From: a virus
Taxonomy: Duplodnaviria; Caudoviricetes
Length of the DNA stretch: 64,000 bases
Virus record (IMG/VR): IMGVR_UViG_3300014205_005221
Span: 32,001-96,000 of that record
Strand: one strand, 5' to 3'
The number at the start of each line of letters is the position of its first letter. The stretch's first letter is position 1. The position numbers and the translations under genes were made by a program. Under the pieces are notes generated by a model. That model did no database searches. It had not been told where the DNA came from and saw only the letters and a program-made list of their open reading frames with translations. Below are positions 1 through 28,268 of the stretch, piece by piece.

Positions 1-930
1 ACGCGACGGGCTGAGGCGGAAAGTCGAACCGGCGAGGCACGACAGGAGCGGATGCAGAGCTGCGCAGTCGAAGGGGTCGCGGTGCGTAGCGGCGGGAGGA
101 TCGAGGGTTGTCGAACTGAACTGGGATGCAAGGAACCCGAGCGGAGTGGGGCTGTCGAGTGGGGGCGACCAGAGATGGGCAGGTGCCGGGAAGTCGGATG
201 GATAAGGGCAGGCAAGGGATGTGTTGTCGGACTGACTCAGGGGCGCGTTGCGAAAGCGCGGGGAAGACTCGGGACGTCGACGGGCCAGCGGTGTCGAGAC
301 GGGGGATGTCATGAGATAAGGGGTGGGCGGGGACAAAGATGGCATGGGCAGTCGAGAAGACGTGGGACGGCAGTGAAAAGTCGACGGGTGCTGAAGTGAA
401 TTGTTCTGGCAAGGGTAGTCGTAACACTGGGTAGTCGAATGGAGGCGAAGCGGCCAGAAGCGCGGCGGCTTGGAGTTGTCAGAAGGATCGGGCTGCGGCG
501 GCTTGGAGTTGTCAGAAGGATCGGGCTGCATGCGCAAGGGGCGGTGGGGGGTTGTCGTGTGAATTGACAGGAGAAGGGGCGGAGCTGGGTTGTCGGCACG
601 GGACGCGGCTTGAGATGACCCGGATAGTCGCAGCGGGTGGGCGAGATCAAATGTGGGGAGACATGTCGATGCGCGGCGCGGTGGGCGCGAGCAGGCGTGA
701 CGATGGATTGTCGAAACGGCTGGTCAGGGCGGGAAGACGACTTGACGATGTCGAGCGGAAGGAAGGGGCAGGGCATGCCAGGGAGTGGTACGGGATGTCG
801 AAGCGAGCCGGACAGGCGCGAGATGACCAGAAACGACTTGTCGAAACGGCGGGGCAGGGCGCGCGGTGGCGAGCGTGGTCGAAACGGAGGGATCGCGGAC
901 CGTGCTGACGAGACCAGACATGTCGAGGGC
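1..930 (+). repeat. Degenerate non-coding array: units of GTCG(A) head + ~4 nt + n G-initiated pentamers; candidate guide-RNA array, truncated by window edge
   Basis: GTC(G/A) at 23,67,110,154,193,226,276,308,351,380,418,434,478,511,554,592,627,665,710,750,797,840,878,922. Spacings are mostly 33, 38-39 and 43-44. G recurs every 5 nt within units. Strand is inferred from the G-rich skew. Confidence 0.75.
462..527. repeat. Exact 33-bp tandem duplication (one array unit)
   Basis: gcggcggcttggagttgtcagaaggatcgggct at 462-494 and 495-527. Confidence 0.95.
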
Positions 931-1001
931 TTACCCTGCCGCGATGCGGACTTAGTGGGCCGGGCGCCTAACTCCCGGAGACACAACAATTCTACCCAGA
1001 G

Positions 1002-1031
1002 AAAAGGCCCCGGATCCGAAGACCCGGGGCC
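1002..1031 (-). terminator. Intrinsic terminator after helicase (possibly bidirectional)
   Basis: GGCCCCGG (1006-1013)/CCGGGGCC (1024-1031) stem; T-run on minus strand. Confidence 0.75.
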
Positions 1032-1039
1032 GATTTCCG

Positions 1040-2809
1040 TCAGGAACGCTGTTCGATCCGCTCCTTGGCGTCCGGAGAAACCGTGAGACCGAACCGCTCA
1101 GCCACGTCCAACACAGCCGCACGCGCGAGCACAATCCGCACCTTCTCGAAACCCGCGTAGTCCGCGCGGTAGCGCATCTTCGGGTCACCGAACGGCAGCT
1201 CCTGCTGCGCCTTGACCAACTCCGGGTTGTACTTGGTCCCCGTCATGATCACGCGGTCCTCGTCTTCCGGGTCGCACATGACGTTGCAGATCTGCGACTC
1301 GGACACGTCCGCCAGCACCGTCACGACGTCGGTCAGGAACACCCGCTCGCCCTCAGCAGGCTTCGTGAGCGGCTCGATCCACGGCGTCAGCGCCGACGAG
1401 TCGACATACTGCTTGCCGCGCGTCACAGCCACGTAGGCCAGCCGCAGCTCCGGAGCCGAGAGACCCTCCTCCGACATCGGCATCGGAAAGTCAGACGCCA
1501 ACTTGACCGAATTCCACTCGCGACCCTTGCTCTTGTGAGCAGTGCTGATCAGCAGCTGCGCGGCACGCTCGGGAACCGCACGCTCGACAGCGGCGAGAAT
1601 GACCTGCGGAGTGTGGTCGTCAACGAGGTTGACCAGCGTCTGCAGGTCACGCGCCTCCTTGTCCTCAGTGACGTACTCACGAACCTGATTCCACGACTCG
1701 AACGCCCGAAGCTCCGGGTGATCTGTCGGACGGCCCTCCGTGAGGTCCAAAGCAGCCTGTGCCAGCCACTGCACCGCCTGGGTACCGCCGACCAGACCCG
1801 CCCGGATGCCCGACATCTGCGCCGTGAGCAGCCGCGAGACCGCCTCGGCGTTGGTGCGGCACAGGACGGTGTCCGGGTTGTCCAGGAACGCCAGCGCAGA
1901 GGACTCCGGTCCGAGACCCTGCAACTGATACGGCGTCTCCAGCAGCGACAGGATGCGATTGGCCTCATCAGCAATGGACTGGCCGAACCGGAACGACGCG
2001 GTCAGCGGAAGCCGGTACTCGGCATCGAACTGGTCGAGCGCGTCGATCGCACCACGCCACGCGTAGATCTGCTGGTTGCTGTCACCGTTCGGGATCAGCT
2101 GAACGCCGTGATCGGTCTGCATGCGCTGCACGATGCTCATGACCACCGGGTCCGCATCCTGCGCCTCATCAAAGAGAACGACCTCGCCCGGAAGTCGGAA
2201 ATTCTTGTCCATGCTGGCGAGCTTCAGGTAGTGGTCGTGCATGAAACGGAGCTGACCCCTGCCCGAGGTGATGTCAGCCCAAGCACGCTGCACGTACGGG
2301 AACACGAACTCCTGCAGCGCCTTGCGCGGCTCGGGAAGATCCATACCCGGAACGCGGGGGATGTGGTGCATGCCGGGCTCAGGAGCGTCGGAAGCGCAGA
2401 ACCGAGCCACCGACTCCATGACCAGACCAGCCAGCTGACGGTCGCGAAGCTTGAAGTCGCCGAACACGAAGTCCTCGCGGATGCGCAGGATCTGCGCCTG
2501 CTTCCAACGCGGGACACGCTCCTGGCTCTGCAGCCGGTCCAGCAGCTCCGGACGGCTCGCCTTGATGTGGTGGTAGGCGAAGCTATGCGCGGTCGCCGCC
2601 GTGACGTTGCGCGGGAACCTGCGCTTGGCCTCATCGGCAATCGACTTGTTGAACGCGATGTAGCAGAAGCTCTTCTCAGCGTTCTCCCGAGAGATCAGCT
2701 CCAGGGTCGACGTCTTGCCGGTACCGGCAAGCGCCTCTACCACCACGTCCTTGCCGGTCGCAGCCGCGTCCATGATGTCGCACTGCTCACTTGTAGGCTT
2801 GAAAGCCAT
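1040..2809 (-). CDS. UvrD/Rep-like SF1 helicase
   Basis: ALAGTGKTS Walker A, DEAQD, GDSNQQIY, SFRF, STAHKSKGREW, YVAVTR; SD AGGAG before ATG 2809. Confidence 0.9.
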   Translation of the reverse strand: MAFKPTSEQCDIMDAAATGKDVVVEALAGTGKTSTLELISRENAEKSFCYIAFNKSIADEAKRRFPRNVTAATAHSFAYHHIKASRPELLDRLQSQERVPRWKQAQILRIREDFVFGDFKLRDRQLAGLVMESVARFCASDAPEPGMHHIPRVPGMDLPEPRKALQEFVFPYVQRAWADITSGRGQLRFMHDHYLKLASMDKNFRLPGEVVLFDEAQDADPVVMSIVQRMQTDHGVQLIPNGDSNQQIYAWRGAIDALDQFDAEYRLPLTASFRFGQSIADEANRILSLLETPYQLQGLGPESSALAFLDNPDTVLCRTNAEAVSRLLTAQMSGIRAGLVGGTQAVQWLAQAALDLTEGRPTDHPELRAFESWNQVREYVTEDKEARDLQTLVNLVDDHTPQVILAAVERAVPERAAQLLISTAHKSKGREWNSVKLASDFPMPMSEEGLSAPELRLAYVAVTRGKQYVDSSALTPWIEPLTKPAEGERVFLTDVVTVLADVSESQICNVMCDPEDEDRVIMTGTKYNPELVKAQQELPFGDPKMRYRADYAGFEKVRIVLARAAVLDVAERFGLTVSPDAKERIEQRS

Positions 2810-2856
2810 GCTAGCTCCTGAAGCTGGGGCGGATTTTTCTCCGCCGCGATGAAAAG

Positions 2857-2884
2857 AGCTTAGCATGCTCGCAGAGACATGCAA
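2857..2884 (-). promoter_or_regulatory. sigma70-type promoter for helicase
   Basis: TTGCAT-N16-TAAGCT with extended TG. Confidence 0.5.
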
Positions 2885-2899
2885 GCTTGACTTGCTGAC

Positions 2900-3115
2900 C
2901 TAATCCTGGCCGAGCGCAGCTTCGACGGTCCGGAACCCGGACGCCCGCAGCAGGTCGACCAGCTCCTCGGCAGCGTTGACCACACGCCACCCGTCCTGGG
3001 CACAACTCACCAGGGTGTCCACATCGAACTCGGCGCCGTGATCTTTGATCTGACGCAGCATTTCCAGCGCGTTCTGCAACGAACGAAACTTAGCGCGCAT
3101 CTCGTCAGCGCTCAT
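2900..3115 (-). CDS. Hypothetical protein
   Basis: ORF MSADEMRAK..., ATGA-coupled to upstream gene. Confidence 0.65.
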   Translation of the reverse strand: MSADEMRAKFRSLQNALEMLRQIKDHGAEFDVDTLVSCAQDGWRVVNAAEELVDLLRASGFRTVEAALGQD

Positions 3116-14225: not shown

Positions 14226-16697
14226 TCAGACGAGCCGCCTGGCGCCGGACAAATCCGGGCCGCCCTGTCGCTGCTTGACCGCCGACGTAGGAACCGTCGG
14301 CATAGCGACCGGCTGCGGTGCATCAGGAGGTGTCGACACCGTGGGCATCGGAACCGGAGGCGGCCCACTCAACTCGACCTGCGGCATGGGGGCAGGCTTG
14401 GGCAACGGAGCTGTCACCGGTACGTCCTCGGGATCCACAGGCTCCTCGGCAACTTCAGGAGCGTGACCGTCCCCCTCCGGATCATCAACCAACTTCGGCT
14501 GCAGGTCCGCGATGTCCATGCTCAACTCAGCACGAGCACGGGCCGAAAGCTTGGCGCCCCACTCCGGATCGAAATCCGCCAAATCCAACACGTTTCCGAG
14601 CCCCTGCAGCTGCGGCCCCTTCTCGCTCGACTTCATCTGCGGGTGATACAGATCATCGGGGAAATACCAAAACGCGCCCGACTTCCGTACGATCTTGGAC
14701 GCCTCCAGCACCCGCATTGCAGCGTGCGCATCGGAGAACCCTTGGCCCAACACAAGATACAACTGGGCCGCCTGCATCGGCTTGCCGACTTTGTTCTTGG
14801 TCACCAGCGCCTGGCTCATCACCGAGTGCGTCTCGTTGATCTTCTCGCCCGACAGCGGGTCGACGCGCTCGCCCTTGAACTGCTTCACGATCTTGAACTG
14901 CACACGCTGCGAGCTGTAGAACTTCAGACCCGAGCCTCCCGGCGTAGTCGTCCGCTTGGGCATGCCCGGACGGGTGGGGCCGGTCTCGATGACGTCGCGC
15001 TCGTGATTGATGAAAATAGCAGCGGTGCCGGTCTTCGCCAGGAACGAAATCATCTTGGACAATTCGTTCTGCAGCAACCGAGCACGCTCCATAGCGGTGG
15101 TACGGGACTCGCCGTCCTCCTCCACCAGCTTGCGCGGAGCCATCGCCGCCACCGAATCGAAGATGGCCAGGCCCAGCTGTCCGGTGCGGATCGCCTGCGA
15201 CGCCACGGACATGCCCTGCTCCAGCGATGCGGCTGGGTACGGCTTGAACAGGTCGCGGTTGTCGACGTCCACACCCAGAGCCCGGAGATAGGGCTTGTCG
15301 AGAGCCTGCTCGAAGTCGACGTAAAGAACCGGCAGACCCATCTTCATGCACTCAGCGGCGCACTGAGCGGCCGTCGTGGTGTTGTGCGTCGGAATAAAGT
15401 CATCGGTCACAAACAACTTGCTCAAAGCGGACACCGAGATGCACTGCGCTTCAGCTCGACGAGAGAACTCCACCGACACCAGCACACGCGGGCGCATACC
15501 ATCGACCCAACCTGGACGCTCTCCGGTCTGCGAGCGTCGCGCCCAACACTCGGCCTTGCGCGCAAGCCGGAACAACGGCGAGGTCCGCGACGTGATCCGC
15601 GCGGTGTAGCACGGGAAATACTCGCCTCCACTCACGCGCACGCCCTTAGGCTGGCGCTGCCCCAAAGTCACCCGGCAGCCGAGCGAACGAGCCAGCCACA
15701 CCACGTCATCGCGAAGCTGTCGTGACGCAGATCCGAAGATCGCTGCACCACCGCCAGCACATGCCTCTGCATCAGTGTCGAGCAACCCCTGCAACACAGC
15801 AAGTCTCGTCTTTGCGGAAGCAATCTTGTAAGACTCAGGAACAAACTTAGTATCCGCCTTGTGTCCCATGACGCCCAACTCGCGCAACGACGCCGTAAGG
15901 GGATTCACCGAGCCGCCACGAGAACCGCACGAGAGACGGTACGACACACCGCGACCTGCGCGGCTTGCCTCGTACAGCTCCACCCCTGCAGGAAGCGTCT
16001 GAGAAACCGCATCAATCAACTCAGAATCAGCTGAAGTGAACAACGCGACGCCGCCCATACCGCCATCGCCGAGCAACAAGCCGAGCAGGTAGGGATCCAG
16101 CGGCAACGGACCCTCAGCGAAGTCCAGGTCCGGGCGCAGCTCCGCATCCAACACGGGACGACACGTCGAGCTGTTGAGCCGTGATGGCACCATCATTTCC
16201 GAGAGCGGCACCACCTTGTGCTCGACAAAAATCTGACGCTCACGACGCACACCACGCCGCTTGGACGACCGTCCTCCCTCCTGCACCCGACGGGACACGC
16301 GATATCGAAACGGCCACAAGTGATCGGCAGTGGACTCACACGTCGAACCGTCCGAAAACGTCAGACGGTAGATATCCATCTCGCCCTGCGGGAAAACGCC
16401 AGTGACCTCTGAAGGCTGTCCCTCAGGATCGATGACAGCATCTCCGACCTGCAGATCACCCATGCGAACATAGCCGGTAGGTGTCAACACCAAGCCGTCC
16501 AACGCAAGCGCCTTGCCTGATTGGCTGAGTCCGTACAGCTCTGCGATGCGCCCGCGCGCGATGCCGCCGCCCAACACAAAATCGAGAGCCAAATTACCGG
16601 TGGGAATGAATCCCTTATCACCGATGACAGACTCGTAGTCCAACTCTTCTTCGGCGTACGCCGCCTGAAGAATGTCATCAAGAGTTTTTACAGCCAC
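14226..16697 (-). CDS. recA: RecA recombinase containing an intein; Pro-rich C-terminal tail
   Basis: IPTGNLALDFVLGGG, GRIAELYG.SQSGK|TTTA, DFEQALD, DSVAAM, IFINH, PGGSGLKFYSS, KNKVG; start GTG 16697 after GAGGAG. Confidence 0.93.
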   Translation of the reverse strand: MAVKTLDDILQAAYAEEELDYESVIGDKGFIPTGNLALDFVLGGGIARGRIAELYGLSQSGKALALDGLVLTPTGYVRMGDLQVGDAVIDPEGQPSEVTGVFPQGEMDIYRLTFSDGSTCESTADHLWPFRYRVSRRVQEGGRSSKRRGVRRERQIFVEHKVVPLSEMMVPSRLNSSTCRPVLDAELRPDLDFAEGPLPLDPYLLGLLLGDGGMGGVALFTSADSELIDAVSQTLPAGVELYEASRAGRGVSYRLSCGSRGGSVNPLTASLRELGVMGHKADTKFVPESYKIASAKTRLAVLQGLLDTDAEACAGGGAAIFGSASRQLRDDVVWLARSLGCRVTLGQRQPKGVRVSGGEYFPCYTARITSRTSPLFRLARKAECWARRSQTGERPGWVDGMRPRVLVSVEFSRRAEAQCISVSALSKLFVTDDFIPTHNTTTAAQCAAECMKMGLPVLYVDFEQALDKPYLRALGVDVDNRDLFKPYPAASLEQGMSVASQAIRTGQLGLAIFDSVAAMAPRKLVEEDGESRTTAMERARLLQNELSKMISFLAKTGTAAIFINHERDVIETGPTRPGMPKRTTTPGGSGLKFYSSQRVQFKIVKQFKGERVDPLSGEKINETHSVMSQALVTKNKVGKPMQAAQLYLVLGQGFSDAHAAMRVLEASKIVRKSGAFWYFPDDLYHPQMKSSEKGPQLQGLGNVLDLADFDPEWGAKLSARARAELSMDIADLQPKLVDDPEGDGHAPEVAEEPVDPEDVPVTAPLPKPAPMPQVELSGPPPVPMPTVSTPPDAPQPVAMPTVPTSAVKQRQGGPDLSGARRLV
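15381..16511 (-). mobile_element. Class 3 (Ala1) intein with LAGLIDADG homing endonuclease in the RecA P-loop (377 aa)
   Basis: Starts ALALDG, ends FIPTHN/T; block B DHLW, block F AQCISV, block G VT; LLGLLLGDG and LQGLLDTD. Confidence 0.9.
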
Positions 16698-16820
16698 AGA
16701 AAGCTCCTCAGAAAACAAACACGGCCCGGGAGTCGAAGCCATTCCGCCGGGATCTAGCGAGGCGACTCAACCGGGCCGTGCGATAGCGATTATACCCGGC
16801 CGAAAACAAAACAAACAACG

Positions 16821-25680: not shown

Positions 25681-27819
25681 TCAACCCTTGACGCACAACA
25701 GGGTGTCGAGCTTCGCGATCGGGCGGACCAAGTCGGTCTGATTCGCCATCACAGCAGCAAGATCCTTGTATGCCGCAGGAATCTCGTCCACGATCCCGGC
25801 GTCCTTACGGCACTCCACGCCCGCCGTCTGCTCGACCAGATCCGCCTCGGTGAACGTCCGACGCGCCTCGCCACGGCTCATCCTGCGACCAGCGCCGTGC
25901 GATGCCGAACAATAGCTGTCCTCGTTCGCCAAGCCCTGCACGATGAACGACCCCGTGCCCATCGAACCCGGGATCACGCCGAGACGGCCGTCGCGCGTCG
26001 AGATCGCACCCTTACGGGTCACGATCATGTCCTTACCGTCGTACGTCTCCTCGGAAACGTAGTTGTGGTGACAGTTGATCTCGGAACCGAACTTCGAGAT
26101 TCCGGTGATCTCGGTGAACGCCTTCTTCACCAGACCCATCATCACCGCGCGGTTGCGGAACGCGTAGTCCTGCGCCCACATCAGGTCATTACGGTACGCG
26201 TCCATCTCCGGAGTGCCGAGGAAAAACGCCGCGAGGTGCCGATCCGGGACGTCCTGGTTCTGCGGAAGTGCAGCCGCCACCTCGATGTGGCGCTCCGCCA
26301 ACTCCTTGCCCACGTTGCGCGACCCGGAGTGCAGCATCAACCAGATCTGGTCAGACTCGTCCTTGCAGACCTCGACAAAGTGATTGCCCCCTCCGAGCGT
26401 TCCGATCTGGTTCATGACGCGATCGGTGTAATCGCTCGCCGACAGACGCCGAGTCGTCATCTTGCCGACACTCAGGTTGTCGTAGCTCGCGAAGAATCCC
26501 GACCAGCCGCCAATGCGCGACGCCTGCATGCGGCCGTCGGTACCGAGGTAGGTCGTGTGCGAAGACTGACCCACCGGCACCGCAGCCTCGATCGCCGCGC
26601 GCAGCGGACCCAGGTCATCAGGAAGCTGATCGATTTCCATGGTGACCGGAACTGCGTTCATGCCACAGTTTCCAGTCATAACAATGTTGCCTCCACGCCG
26701 CATCACCCAGAACCCGGACGGAACCGTGAAACAGTAAGCGCGACCATCCGCAGACGGAACGCGAACGATCTCGCTCTTGGGCGTCCCCATCATGGTCACC
26801 CGGCGATTGGGCTGAGCGAACACCCGGAAGTCCAGCGTGTCGTCCTCGCTCTTGTCCTCGCGAAGGACAGCCCGGAACCCGACGGCCGTGAACACGTAGT
26901 GCATGAAGTCCGCCGACGCACGATCACGCGTGTAGAAACAGCGATCCTCCGCGTTACCGTCCCACAACAAACACTCTTCGGCAATCACAGCGAGCTGCTC
27001 CCAGGACGCCTCCCACCAGTCGCCCGAGAACGACTTCGTGAGGCGCGGAGGAGCAAACCGGAACGTGGTGACGCCGCCGGACTCCGAACGCGAGGCATCG
27101 ACGCCCGATGCCGCGAAAAGCTGCTCAGCCCGATCGATCTTGCGCTGCTTCTTGAGCCGCAGAACAGCCCTCCGGCCATCCAGATGCGCGTCCGCGTGCA
27201 CCATGACCTGCACACGAATCTGCTCGTCGGAAAGAGGAAGCTCCGTCTCGATCTCCGGCTCAAAACTGGTCTCGAACTCCGCCTTGATGCCGACCTTCAG
27301 CCGGGTGTGCTCAGCCTCGAACTGCTCAGCGAGTAGTACCTCCTGCACACGACGCCGGTCACGACCAACCATCCGCCACACCAGCATCCGGTGATCCGGC
27401 GACAGCATCTGGTCAATGCCGTACTTCGTGCGCAGCCACAGGAACTCCGGACAGTCCCTCACGACAAACCGGCTGGGCTCCACGAACTGCCCGCGCGAGG
27501 TCTCCGGGTCGTACTGCATGACCGGACCGCCCGTGTAGTCGGCAATACGCCGCCACCCCTGCGGAGACAAATATTCCGAATCTGCATCGACACAGCCGAT
27601 GTCAACTCCCACCGCAGCAGGACAGACAGCGTTGCGCGACGCGATGACCGTGCCGATCGTCGCACCCTTGCCTGCGTGAACGTCCGGCATCACCGCCAGG
27701 CCCTCGACCCACGGCATGTCCGCCACCGTGCGGATCTGGTTCAGCGCGGTCCACTCGACGTCGGTCGGGTCGATCCACATCCGGACCGGCGACTTGGTAC
27801 CCGCCATCTCGTGATACAT
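25681..27819 (-). CDS. rtcB: RtcB RNA ligase containing an intein
   Basis: MPDVHAGKGATIG, VGVDIG|CGM, GTLGGGNHF, LHSGSR, HHNY, PGSMG, SHGAGR, DEIPAAYK. Confidence 0.95.
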   Translation of the reverse strand: MYHEMAGTKSPVRMWIDPTDVEWTALNQIRTVADMPWVEGLAVMPDVHAGKGATIGTVIASRNAVCPAAVGVDIGCVDADSEYLSPQGWRRIADYTGGPVMQYDPETSRGQFVEPSRFVVRDCPEFLWLRTKYGIDQMLSPDHRMLVWRMVGRDRRRVQEVLLAEQFEAEHTRLKVGIKAEFETSFEPEIETELPLSDEQIRVQVMVHADAHLDGRRAVLRLKKQRKIDRAEQLFAASGVDASRSESGGVTTFRFAPPRLTKSFSGDWWEASWEQLAVIAEECLLWDGNAEDRCFYTRDRASADFMHYVFTAVGFRAVLREDKSEDDTLDFRVFAQPNRRVTMMGTPKSEIVRVPSADGRAYCFTVPSGFWVMRRGGNIVMTGNCGMNAVPVTMEIDQLPDDLGPLRAAIEAAVPVGQSSHTTYLGTDGRMQASRIGGWSGFFASYDNLSVGKMTTRRLSASDYTDRVMNQIGTLGGGNHFVEVCKDESDQIWLMLHSGSRNVGKELAERHIEVAAALPQNQDVPDRHLAAFFLGTPEMDAYRNDLMWAQDYAFRNRAVMMGLVKKAFTEITGISKFGSEINCHHNYVSEETYDGKDMIVTRKGAISTRDGRLGVIPGSMGTGSFIVQGLANEDSYCSASHGAGRRMSRGEARRTFTEADLVEQTAGVECRKDAGIVDEIPAAYKDLAAVMANQTDLVRPIAKLDTLLCVKG
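26668..27594 (-). mobile_element. Class 1 intein (309 aa) at the RtcB active-site Cys, with degenerate LAGLIDADG domain
   Basis: Starts CVDADSEYL, block B SPDHR, block F AYCFTV, ends VMTGN/C. Confidence 0.9.
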
Positions 27820-28268
27820 CAGCTCTTCTCCCTCTTCACCCTCACGCGCAGAATGCCCCGAGTACGCGGCCTCGTGTCCAGAATGGCCCGAGCGTTCGCC
27901 ACCGCAACACTCCACGAAGTGCCCTCATCCTGCTCGTCCTGGACATTGATAACCGCGTCGAGCAAATCCCAATCAACATCGAAACGGCCCAGCTCGGCGA
28001 CATCAGAGACCACAGACAAAGCCGTCCTGCCCTCGCGCCGCTCCAGCTCAACGAGGGGAACCTGCTTCTTCTCGTGCAGCCACACACCAACGATGCACGA
28101 AGGGGCGGAGCCATCCTCGGAGACATACCAGCAGCTCAGATCAGAACCCTCACGGTCGGTCTTCCGGTACACGAAGTCGTGACCCAGCTCAGCCTTGCGC
28201 GCTTCCGCGATCTCGGCCAGCTCATCGAGCGCCTGGTAAGCCAACGCGTAGATCTCTGTGTTCGTCAT
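27819..28268 (-). CDS. Hypothetical early protein (MTNT start), TGATG-coupled to rtcB
   Basis: CWYV...PSCIVG; leaderless. Confidence 0.8.
   Translation of the reverse strand: MTNTEIYALAYQALDELAEIAEARKAELGHDFVYRKTDREGSDLSCWYVSEDGSAPSCIVGVWLHEKKQVPLVELERREGRTALSVVSDVAELGRFDVDWDLLDAVINVQDEQDEGTSWSVAVANARAILDTRPRTRGILRVRVKREKS

What the first reader, a model, noticed from the sequence alone, without database searches (positions are those of the whole stretch)
1..930. Cryptic unit array with 8+5n architecture: candidate non-contiguous guide-RNA array
Seen: about 22 units, each headed by (T/A)GTCG(A), with spacings 44,43,44,39,33,...,43,...,38,...,44,33,43,38,35,38,45,40,47,43,38,44. These cluster at 33/38/43 = 8 + 5n. 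Inside units G recurs every 5 nt, usually followed by a purine, while the other positions vary: 757-796 ggaag gaagg ggcag ggcat gccag ggagt ggtac gggat; 805-839 gagcc ggaca ggcgc gagat gacca gaaac gactt; 848-877 ggcgg ggcag ggcgc gcggt ggcga gcgtg. A 5-nt period fits poorly with codon structure, and no ORF here looks like a protein. The plus strand is G-rich only here, matching the G-rich sense strand elsewhere, which suggests rightward transcription. Inference: a precursor cut at GTCG into 33-45 nt RNAs, where a protein filament binds one pentamer per subunit and the variable positions carry target information, like a CRISPR array with repeat and spacer interleaved. From memory, unverified here, this resembles phage GGY-NN pentamer guide arrays (VIPR-type) linked to Cas7/RAMP-like proteins, with a more relaxed GR-NNN consensus and a GTCG delimiter. 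The partner gene is not in the window and would lie left of position 1.
Basis: partly seen in the sequence, partly recalled or inferred. Interest (0 to 1): 0.93.

Follow-up and report, generated by a model that had tools for sequence, protein, structure and literature searches.

The report
Divergent phage VIPR guide-RNA array
The first 930 bases are one of three arrays of short units with a five-base rhythm that, with a lone Cas7-like gene lying just left of the window, form a divergent member of the phage VIPR RNA-guided systems described in 2026; the kind is known, but the array layout is unusual and it is probably read from the opposite strand to the one proposed.

Summary
Window 1-930 carries 23 GTCG heads (24.7/kb against 6.4/kb in the whole window). 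G autocorrelation peaks at lag 5 (z 5.3) and lag 10 (z 3.4), with no lag-3 signal, and the phase is locked to the heads.

The predicted partner exists. A 252-aa protein 658-1416 nt left of the window folds as a Cas7/Csm3-type RAMP (Z 11.2). Its family aligns to the family of the Escherichia phage SUSP1 Vipr (hhalign 94%, E 1.2e-7). A conserved 182-aa partner gene sits beside it.

The same module, with strongly skewed pentamer arrays, recurs in at least 26 of 34 related viral contigs. Their arrays reach about 79 units and do not align between relatives.

So this is a VIPR-type system of a divergent clade. The scan has noted VIPR-like arrays on other DNA before (180 notes, at least 139 genomes).

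- The RNA is most likely the C-rich minus strand. A phage promoter motif and a structured leader head each array, and in relatives the array sits inside the partner-RAMP operon.
- Read that way, the unit is (NN-c-Y-C)n with GAC punctuation.
- The 8+5n rule fits 10 of 27 units here, although it is the commonest class family-wide.

No targets were found. Expression is untested.

The parts
1..926 (-). Array C: about 23 units, running on to about 25 nt left of the window. On the + strand each unit reads GTCG(A)NNN(GNNNN)n; on the minus strand, the likely RNA sense, (NN-c-Y-C)n followed by GAC. Parts of the same system lie LEFT of the window and cannot be entered in window coordinates. (1) The 182-aa partner (vap-like) gene, contig C1:31390-31938, minus strand, 62-610 nt left of position 1. 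(2) The 252-aa Vipr-like RAMP gene, C1:30584-31342, minus strand, 658-1416 nt left. (3) Array B with its leader and GGGTAGGA motif, C1:30290-30579. (4) Solo array A with its leader and motif, C1:4093-4423.
462..529 (.). Exact 33-bp tandem duplication (2.1 copies) of one unit with a degenerate GTCA head.
916..989 (-). Structured leader of array C: two covarying hairpins, a GAGUUAGG-type loop, a CUAAGUCC linker and a third small GGG/CCC hairpin, running into the first TCGAC.
   Evidence: covariance model R1, 64 bits, E 2.8e-18
990..997 (-). GGGTAGAA promoter/start-site motif facing the array, directly after the helicase terminator.
1003..1031 (-). Boundary of the locus: G+C-rich hairpin with a T-run on the minus strand, the terminator of the UvrD-like helicase gene (window 1040-2884, minus). 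The helicase is not a conserved partner.

Best explanation
Window 1-930 is the largest of three guide-RNA arrays of a VIPR-type system carried by a large phage (contig at least 186 kb). The effector is a stand-alone Cas7-like RAMP of 252 aa, a distant homologue of the Vipr protein of phage SUSP1. It is encoded with a conserved 182-aa partner just left of the window.

Each array is most likely transcribed leftward, giving a C-rich RNA, from a phage promoter motif and through a hairpin leader. Inferred by analogy with the SUSP1 cryo-EM structures: RAMP protomers polymerise along the RNA, one per pentamer. They hold the constant part (c-Y-C in RNA sense) and expose the two freely variable bases. 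A run of 5-9 pentamers would then spell a gapped recognition sequence in the DNA of a competing mobile element, which is silenced.

The (C)CGAC punctuation adds 3 nt to the pentamer train and resets its phase. It would mark where one guide, or one filament, ends and the next begins.

Shown here: the periodic anatomy, the RAMP fold and its homology to Vipr, the conserved gene-array module, the hypervariability of the arrays, and the promoter and leader placement. Inferred: transcription, processing, filament loading, the pairing rule and the targets.
For: Anatomy. RAMP fold: AlphaFold2 mean pLDDT 78.7. Foldseek's best PDB matches are all Cas7-type subunits (type VII Cas7, Csm3, Cmr4), E from 3e-6. 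The wide PDB search gives Z 11.2 to Csm3 6ae2_B (155 residues aligned, rmsd 3.4), and about the 44 best rows are RAMPs.

Homology to Vipr: I located the SUSP1 VIPR locus in KT454805 from its YNNGG tracts. hhalign of our family (A3, 53 sequences) against the SUSP1 Vipr family (A2, 35 sequences) gives probability 94.1%, E 1.2e-7, over 135 columns including the C-terminal G-loop.

Co-occurrence: 34 IMG/VR contigs encode the RAMP. At least 26 have lag-5-periodic tracts with GC skew beyond 0.3 next to it. These are 38 arrays totalling 30 kb, and 36 of the 38 are C-rich on the gene strand. The 182-aa partner is present in 28 of 37 loci, always on the same strand.

Two variable and three constant positions: over 1208 pentamers, positions 0 and 1 are near-uniform, then C stands at 50%, C/T at 72/16%, and C at 96%.

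Hypervariability: the genes of relatives align at 70-84% identity, while the arrays between them do not align.

Strand. Four G-U cells in the leader stems pair only in minus-strand sense.

Self-association of the RAMP: three copies score ipSAE 0.57 against a best control of 0.00, with a head-to-tail interface, at least 81% contact agreement between runs and partner pLDDT at least 72. In the tool's calibration this mark was reached by 20 of 30 solved homomers and 1 of 23 single chains. Cas7 filaments are solved structures, so the pass may come from likeness.
Against: The published constant motif GGY is not met. The SUSP1 residues that hold the two guanines (H17, D177, W178; 10.64898/2026.04.26.720927, section 5) are not conserved: the G-loop reads G-I-G-A-S-R in place of G-V-G-D-W-R.

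Units lack the invariant 3' tail that each SUSP1 vrRNA carries.

Read on the G-rich strand, the pentamer is G-R-g-N-N, the same order as published GGY-NN. This keeps the opposite strand in play.

Units hold only 5-9 pentamers, so a two-base-per-pentamer code gives 10-18 specified bases, marginal for specificity.
Confidence: 0.72

Rival explanations
1. Same VIPR-type system, but the guides are the G-rich + strand. The RNA would be G-R-g-N-N pentamers with a 5' GTCGANNN handle, made by antisense transcription, and the hairpin element at window 916-989 would act as a 3' tail.
For: The order G-R-(g)-N-N mirrors published GGY-NN (10.64898/2026.04.26.720920). That paper lists NNNGG, YNNNG and NNNNG variants. 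Published vrRNAs end in a structured 3' tail, and the hairpin element would sit 3' in this sense. Two of the 38 arrays of relatives are inverted relative to the genes.
Against: There is no promoter motif on the + strand at the array's left end. GGGTAG(G/A)A is on the minus strand in 67 of 69 copies, and all three array copies face into the arrays. In 18 relatives the last unit is followed within 17-60 nt by the ribosome-binding site and start of the RAMP gene. That leaves no room for an outward promoter and places the C strand inside the operon transcript. In the inverted array of L027 the roughly 120-nt non-repeat spacer again lies at the C-strand 5' end. No T-run follows the hairpins in + sense. 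SUSP1 vrRNAs are co-oriented with vipr. The SUSP1 guanine-binding residues are absent.
Confidence: 0.2
2. The arrays are not guides. They would be a long structured or protein-coated untranslated region, a decoy RNA, or double-stranded-DNA binding sites (iteron-like) that regulate the partner-RAMP operon or titrate the RAMP, and the variable positions would carry no target information.
For: No target was found under 15 to 23 gapped rules in the assembly or in relatives' loci. Units are short. The arrays are embedded in the operon.
Against: Arrays turn over completely while keeping the pentamer skeleton, which fits information-bearing variable positions better than a fixed binding site. A solo array with its own promoter and leader lies 26 kb from the genes. 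The protein is homologous to a RAMP shown to use such RNAs as guides.
Confidence: 0.07
3. The region is protein-coding or a compositional artefact.
For: Long open frames exist on the C-rich strand, for example 226 aa at window 309-989. Gene callers did call one such array as a 176-aa gene in a relative.
Against: There is no lag-3 signal (lag-3 is negative in relatives). No Pfam family matches. The arrays do not align between relatives whose flanking genes are 70-84% identical. C-rich DNA is open by composition alone.
Confidence: 0.01

Closest known systems
Type II VIPR of Escherichia phage SUSP1 (Vipr + vap1 + vrRNAs; bioRxiv 10.64898/2026.04.26.720920 and .720927)
   Same: A stand-alone RAMP homologous by profile comparison. 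A two-gene module. Phage-borne. RNA genes with a 5-nt period, three constant and two variable positions, on both sides of the genes. Arrays co-oriented with the genes, if the minus strand is the RNA.
   Different: The RAMP is 225-250 aa with a low-confidence helical insert (residues 33-78), against 195 aa. The guanine-contacting residues are replaced. The constant motif is c-Y-C (or G-R-g), not GGY. Units have 5-9 pentamers instead of 9-16. There is no per-guide structured tail. Arrays hold up to about 23 units here and about 79 in relatives, against four vrRNAs. The partner protein is unrelated to vap1 in the one profile comparison run.
VIPR 'staggered' arrays and NNNGG/YNNNG/NNNNG variants (same preprint, fig. 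S17-S18, methods)
   Same: Abutting guides with no spacer between them and a relaxed pentamer consensus.
   Different: I could not read the figures or tables, so I cannot tell whether this actinobacterial-phage clade, its CGAC punctuation, its leader or its strand are already described there. The main text mentions neither a leader nor a pyrimidine constant motif.
Non-canonical VIPR arrays found by a genomic language model (bioRxiv 10.64898/2026.10.21.760802: GAC/NN, CAC/NN, WGT/NN, TGH/NN)
   Same: They show that the constant trinucleotide of VIPR repeats changes between clades and can contain C.
   Different: Those clusters are described as 10 repeats per RNA. Here there are long multi-unit arrays with 3-nt punctuation.
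CRISPR arrays with Cas7 backbone filaments (types I, III, IV, VII)
   Same: The RAMP fold, and the best structural matches are Csm3, Cmr4 and type VII Cas7. One promoter and leader followed by many short, fast-evolving units separated by a short constant element.
   Different: There is no 23-nt or longer repeat and no cas1/cas2 or other cas genes. The period is 5 nt, not 6. The guide is interleaved with the constant bases instead of being contiguous.

Membership tests
VIPR | Effector is a minimal RAMP (RRM core, glycine-rich loop, thumb) | tested here: met
   Cas7/Csm3 matches with Z up to 11.2. A long beta-hairpin at residues 155-186. A G-loop at 202-218 with invariant G206, G208 and R211.
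VIPR | Effector is homologous to a characterised Vipr protein | tested here: met
   hhalign of A3 against the SUSP1 Vipr family A2 gives probability 94.1%, E 1.2e-7, over 135 columns. With the shallower alignment A1 it was only 41%.
VIPR | Non-CRISPR context: no CRISPR repeats, no other cas genes, a minimal two-gene locus | tested here: met
   the neighbours are a helicase, a sliding clamp and a vWA protein; no CRISPR-like repeat; the conserved module is the RAMP plus the 182-aa partner.
VIPR | Adjacent non-coding tracts of tandem pentamers with constant and hypervariable positions | tested here: met
VIPR | Constant motif GGY, bound through H17, D177, R138 and W178 (SUSP1 numbering) | tested here: not met
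   the motif is c-Y-C in minus-strand sense, or G-R-g on the other strand. D177 and W178 align to A and S. H17 has no conserved counterpart by my reading of the N-terminal motif; this last point is inference.
VIPR | Each vrRNA has 9-16 repeats followed by an invariant structured 3' tail | tested here: not met
   units have 5-9 pentamers separated only by (C)CGAC. There is one structured leader per array. The preprint reports other architectures (staggered, ribozyme-interspersed), so this is a type II feature and not a family-wide one.
VIPR | Mainly carried by viruses and proviruses | tested here: met
   (phage replication genes on the contig); not found in 300 sampled genomes of the same phylum.
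VIPR | vrRNAs are expressed and co-purify with Vipr | not testable with these tools
VIPR | Variable dinucleotides match natural targets under the 1-nt skip rule | tested here: inconclusive
   no excess over shuffled controls in 2.9 Mb of the assembly or in 0.45 Mb of related loci. The units are too short for database-wide scans.
CRISPR-Cas | Direct repeats of about 23-50 nt alternating with contiguous spacers, with adaptation genes | tested here: not met
   no cas1/cas2 among the neighbours scanned.

The most novel reading that the evidence does not exclude
In this large clade of phages from high-G+C metagenomes, the VIPR guides are the C-rich strand. The Vipr would have swapped its guanine pockets for a pyrimidine constant motif (c-Y-C). 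It would be fed from CRISPR-like arrays: one promoter and one structured leader, then tens of short guides (up to about 79) separated by a 3-nt GAC punctuation, embedded in the partner-vipr operon. This organisation is not described in the main text of the 2026 preprints. It would be an intermediate between single vrRNA genes and leader-driven CRISPR arrays.
Probability: 0.4. Interest if true: 0.7.

Novelty: new variant of a known kind. Interest (0 to 1): 0.5.

Why it matters
VIPR systems were proposed in 2026 as the viral ancestors of CRISPR backbone proteins. They read DNA through a gapped code. This clade is large: 775 clusters at 50% identity, and more than 1100 proteins.

- It would show how far the code can drift: a different constant motif, possibly pyrimidine, with different contact residues.
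- It would show that VIPR guides can be organised as long multi-guide arrays inside an operon, in this subclade headed by one promoter and leader. That is the layout expected of a step towards CRISPR arrays.
- It offers a compact candidate tool, a 225-250-aa protein with 30-45-nt guides, from high-G+C hosts.
- A practical point: gene callers annotate these C-rich arrays as proteins.

Tried and rejected
- Rfam scan of window 1-3000 on both strands at E up to 1: nothing in the array or leader.
- blastn of window 1-3000 against 50,697 phage records: no match.
- Sequence profile of the RAMP family against PDB chains: nothing significant.
- Pfam and PHROGs on the RAMP and its partner: no family, apart from a weak phrog_4604 match of unknown function for the partner.
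- Fold search for the 182-aa partner: best Z 4.7, only generic helical matches, so no fold assignment.
- Target search in the assembly: 29 own units under 15 gapped rules (2, 3 or 4 bases per pentamer, skip 0-2) against the whole 2.9-Mb assembly with arrays masked. No excess over shuffled pentamer order.
- Target search in relatives: 193 phase-coherent units of the whole family under 8 rules against all fetched loci plus the contig. No excess.
- Codon test: the three variable or semi-variable bases were tested for stop-codon depletion in either sense. None was seen (18 observed against 22 expected; 24 against 23), so the data give no support for a contiguous-codon reading.
- Two contiguous-triplet 21-mers from the best own units, scanned in IMG/VR: 0 hits.
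- Covariance model of the leader: it finds only the six training copies (three own, two in L039, one in L042), so the leader is specific to this subclade.
- Folding energies of the leader on either strand: z-scores uninformative for strand choice.
- UvrD-like helicase next to the array, considered as an accessory gene: it recurs in only 3 other loci, so rejected.

Full report

Yes. In window 1-930, GTCG occurs 23 times (24.7/kb against 6.4/kb for the whole window). GTCGA occurs 16 times (17.2/kb against 2.2/kb).

Against 300 dinucleotide-preserving shuffles, the G autocorrelation has z 5.3 at lag 5 and 3.4 at lag 10, with no signal at lag 3. The tract is strongly G-rich on the + strand (skew +0.37 to +0.50), where the rest of the window is slightly C-rich.

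I split the array at its heads and pooled 27 units from this array and its two sisters. G stands at unit position 9 in all units, 14 in 90%, 19 in 80% and 24/29 in 70%. Counted from the 3' end, G stands at -5 in 90% and at -10 in 80%. So the phase is anchored to both ends of a unit.

Unit lengths are 5n+3 in 10 units, 5n+4 in 10 and 5n in 6, so 8+5n is only one of three classes here. In 452 units of related phages, 5n+3 is the commonest class, with peaks at 28, 33, 38, 43 and 48.

The head is itself in phase. The array is a continuous pentamer train into which a 3-nt punctuation is inserted.

An exact 33-bp tandem duplication of one unit lies at 462-529.

**2. Where it sits**

The window is positions 32001-96000 of a 186-kb contig. 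The contig carries phage replication genes: DNA polymerase, ribonucleotide reductase, helicases, a sliding clamp and RtcB.

The array starts about 25 nt left of the window. Scanning the contig found two more arrays of the same kind, at C1:4093-4345 and C1:30290-30505.

Nearly all genes here are on the minus strand. Read on that strand, the order is:

- UvrD-like helicase, its terminator, then a GGGTAGAA motif
- hairpin leader, then array C
- a 182-aa gene (C1:31390-31938) and a 252-aa gene (C1:30584-31342)
- GGGTAGGA motif, leader and array B
- a vWA-TerF-like gene

**3. The partner protein**

The 252-aa protein has no Pfam or PHROG family. It has more than 1100 homologues in metagenomes and in a few actinobacterial records. 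A library-wide profile search finds 775 clusters at 50% identity.

Its AlphaFold2 model has mean pLDDT 78.7. It matches Cas7-type backbone subunits and nothing else of note:

- Foldseek against the PDB gives E from 3e-6, to type VII Cas7, Csm3 and Cmr4.
- The Foldseek-independent search gives Z 11.2 to Csm3 (155 residues, rmsd 3.4), and about the first 44 rows are RAMPs.
- Among viral models it matches other phage RAMP-like proteins.

To test membership directly, I located the published SUSP1 VIPR locus in KT454805 from its YNNGG tracts. I collected the family of its 195-aa Vipr and compared profiles. With a diverse alignment of our family, hhalign gives probability 94.1%, E 1.2e-7, over 135 columns, including the C-terminal glycine-rich loop. 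A shallow alignment had given 41%.

The SUSP1 residues that hold the two guanines, D177 and W178 (10.64898/2026.04.26.720927, section 5), align to alanine and serine. A different constant motif is therefore expected.

Three copies of the protein are predicted to associate head to tail. The ipSAE score is 0.57 against a best control of 0.00, with at least 81% contact agreement and partner pLDDT at least 72. In the tool's calibration the mark was reached by 20 of 30 solved homomers and 1 of 23 single chains. Cas7 filaments are solved structures, so this pass may only reflect that likeness.

**4. A conserved module**

Thirty-four IMG/VR contigs encode the RAMP. By a strict criterion, at least 26 have strongly skewed, lag-5-periodic tracts next to the gene. 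These are 38 arrays totalling 30 kb, with (C)CGAC every 25-45 nt and up to about 79 units in one array.

The 182-aa protein family is present in 28 of 37 loci. It is always on the same strand and almost always upstream of the RAMP gene. Six or seven of the nine loci without it are cut off by a contig end. Its model is helical with a small hairpin and has no recognisable fold.

Between relatives whose two genes are 70-84% identical, the arrays do not align. L025 and L027 differ by an inversion of the gene cassette between oppositely oriented arrays.

Over 1208 phase-coherent pentamers, the first two positions are nearly uniform. The last three read c (50% C), Y (72% C, 16% T) and C (96%) in gene-strand sense. 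That is two variable plus three constant positions, as in VIPR.

**5. Which strand is the RNA?**

Four lines of evidence point the other way.

- **Promoter motif.** GGGTAG(G/A)A occurs 69 times on the contig, 67 of them on the coding (minus) strand. Thirty-eight of those stand exactly 7 nt before an NTG start, the pattern of a promoter for leaderless transcripts. The same motif, without a start codon, stands at the right end of all three arrays facing into them. For array C it follows directly after the helicase terminator.
- **Leader.** Each motif is followed by a conserved leader with covarying hairpins. The closest relatives, L039 (two copies) and L042, have it at the same place. Four G-U cells in its stems pair only in this sense.
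- **Operon position.** In 18 relatives with the order partner-array-RAMP, the array begins 0-67 nt after the partner's stop, apart from two outliers near 180 nt. The last CGAC is followed within 17-60 nt (one outlier at 136 nt) by the ribosome-binding site and start codon of the RAMP gene. The C strand therefore lies inside the operon transcript, and there is no room for an outward promoter.
- **Orientation.** 36 of 38 arrays are C-rich on the gene strand. In the inverted array of L027 the non-repeat spacer again lies at the C-strand 5' end. SUSP1 vrRNAs are also co-oriented with vipr.

Against this, G-R-g-N-N on the G strand has the same order as published GGY-NN. I put the minus strand at about 0.8.

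**6. Mechanism**

By homology and anatomy, the best explanation is a VIPR-type RNA-guided DNA-binding system. One protomer would sit on each pentamer, the constant bases held by protein and the variable bases exposed. Units of 5-9 pentamers would be delimited by the GAC punctuation. The step from anatomy to function is inference from the SUSP1 work. Processing, loading, the pairing rule and the targets are not shown.

I found no targets:

- no excess over shuffled controls under 15 rules in the 2.9-Mb assembly;
- none under 8 rules in 0.45 Mb of related loci;
- no stop-codon depletion in the variable triplets;
- no exact IMG/VR match for two contiguous-triplet 21-mers.

With 10-18 specified bases per unit under a two-base code, database-wide scans are uninformative.

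**7. Novelty**

VIPR has been in print since April 2026. The preprints mention staggered arrays and relaxed consensuses, and a later preprint reports other constant trinucleotides. This scan has noted VIPR-like arrays on other DNA many times.

I could not read the preprint's figures or tables, so I cannot tell whether this clade is already typed. Its main text mentions neither actinobacterial hosts, nor a leader, nor a pyrimidine motif.

I therefore file it as a new variant of a known kind. It has a divergent effector with replaced base contacts, a new partner family, and very long punctuated multi-guide arrays. In this subclade each array has a promoter and leader, and the RNA strand is probably the C-rich one.

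Noticed in passing
whole contig C1; in the window e.g. 3324, 5978, 6720, 7000, 10443 (minus strand): GGGTAG(G/A)A occurs 69 times, 67 on the coding strand. Thirty-eight copies stand exactly 7 nt before an ATG, GTG or TTG. This looks like a phage-specific promoter for leaderless mRNAs. Other copies precede non-coding stretches, at contig positions 26400 and 28203.
   Followed up: partly
L003:3466-3477, L003:4047-4058, L002:17462-17471 (contig C1 left of the window): Several genes begin with nearly the same codons (ATGACGAAC(A/G)(C/T)C, Met-Thr-Asn...).
   Followed up: no
L025:3501-5610 compared with L027:1781-4480: Two related phages (RAMP 89% identical) differ by an inversion of the RAMP-partner cassette between two oppositely oriented arrays. 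The arrays may act as inverted repeats for recombination.
   Followed up: partly
L042:873-1403: A gene caller annotated a C-rich pentamer array as a 176-aa protein. Such arrays are likely to sit in protein databases as spurious proline- and serine-rich ORFs.
   Followed up: partly
window 25681-27915 (minus): A 744-aa protein combines a PhoH-like ATPase region (residues 98-429) with an RtcB RNA ligase (417-744). tRNA-like RNAs were noted nearby by earlier readers.
   Followed up: no
window 14226-16742 (minus): An 838-aa protein matches PHROG families for UvsX-like recombinase, DNA repair protein, primase/helicase loader and terminase large subunit, in adjoining and partly overlapping regions (about residues 70-460 and 455-617). 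It may be a fusion or an intein-bearing gene.
   Followed up: no
L002:17489-18241 (minus), directly downstream of array B; L003:5208-6317 (minus), upstream of array A: A vWA-TerF-like protein and an ADP-ribosylglycohydrolase flank the smaller arrays. There is no evidence that they belong to the system.
   Followed up: no
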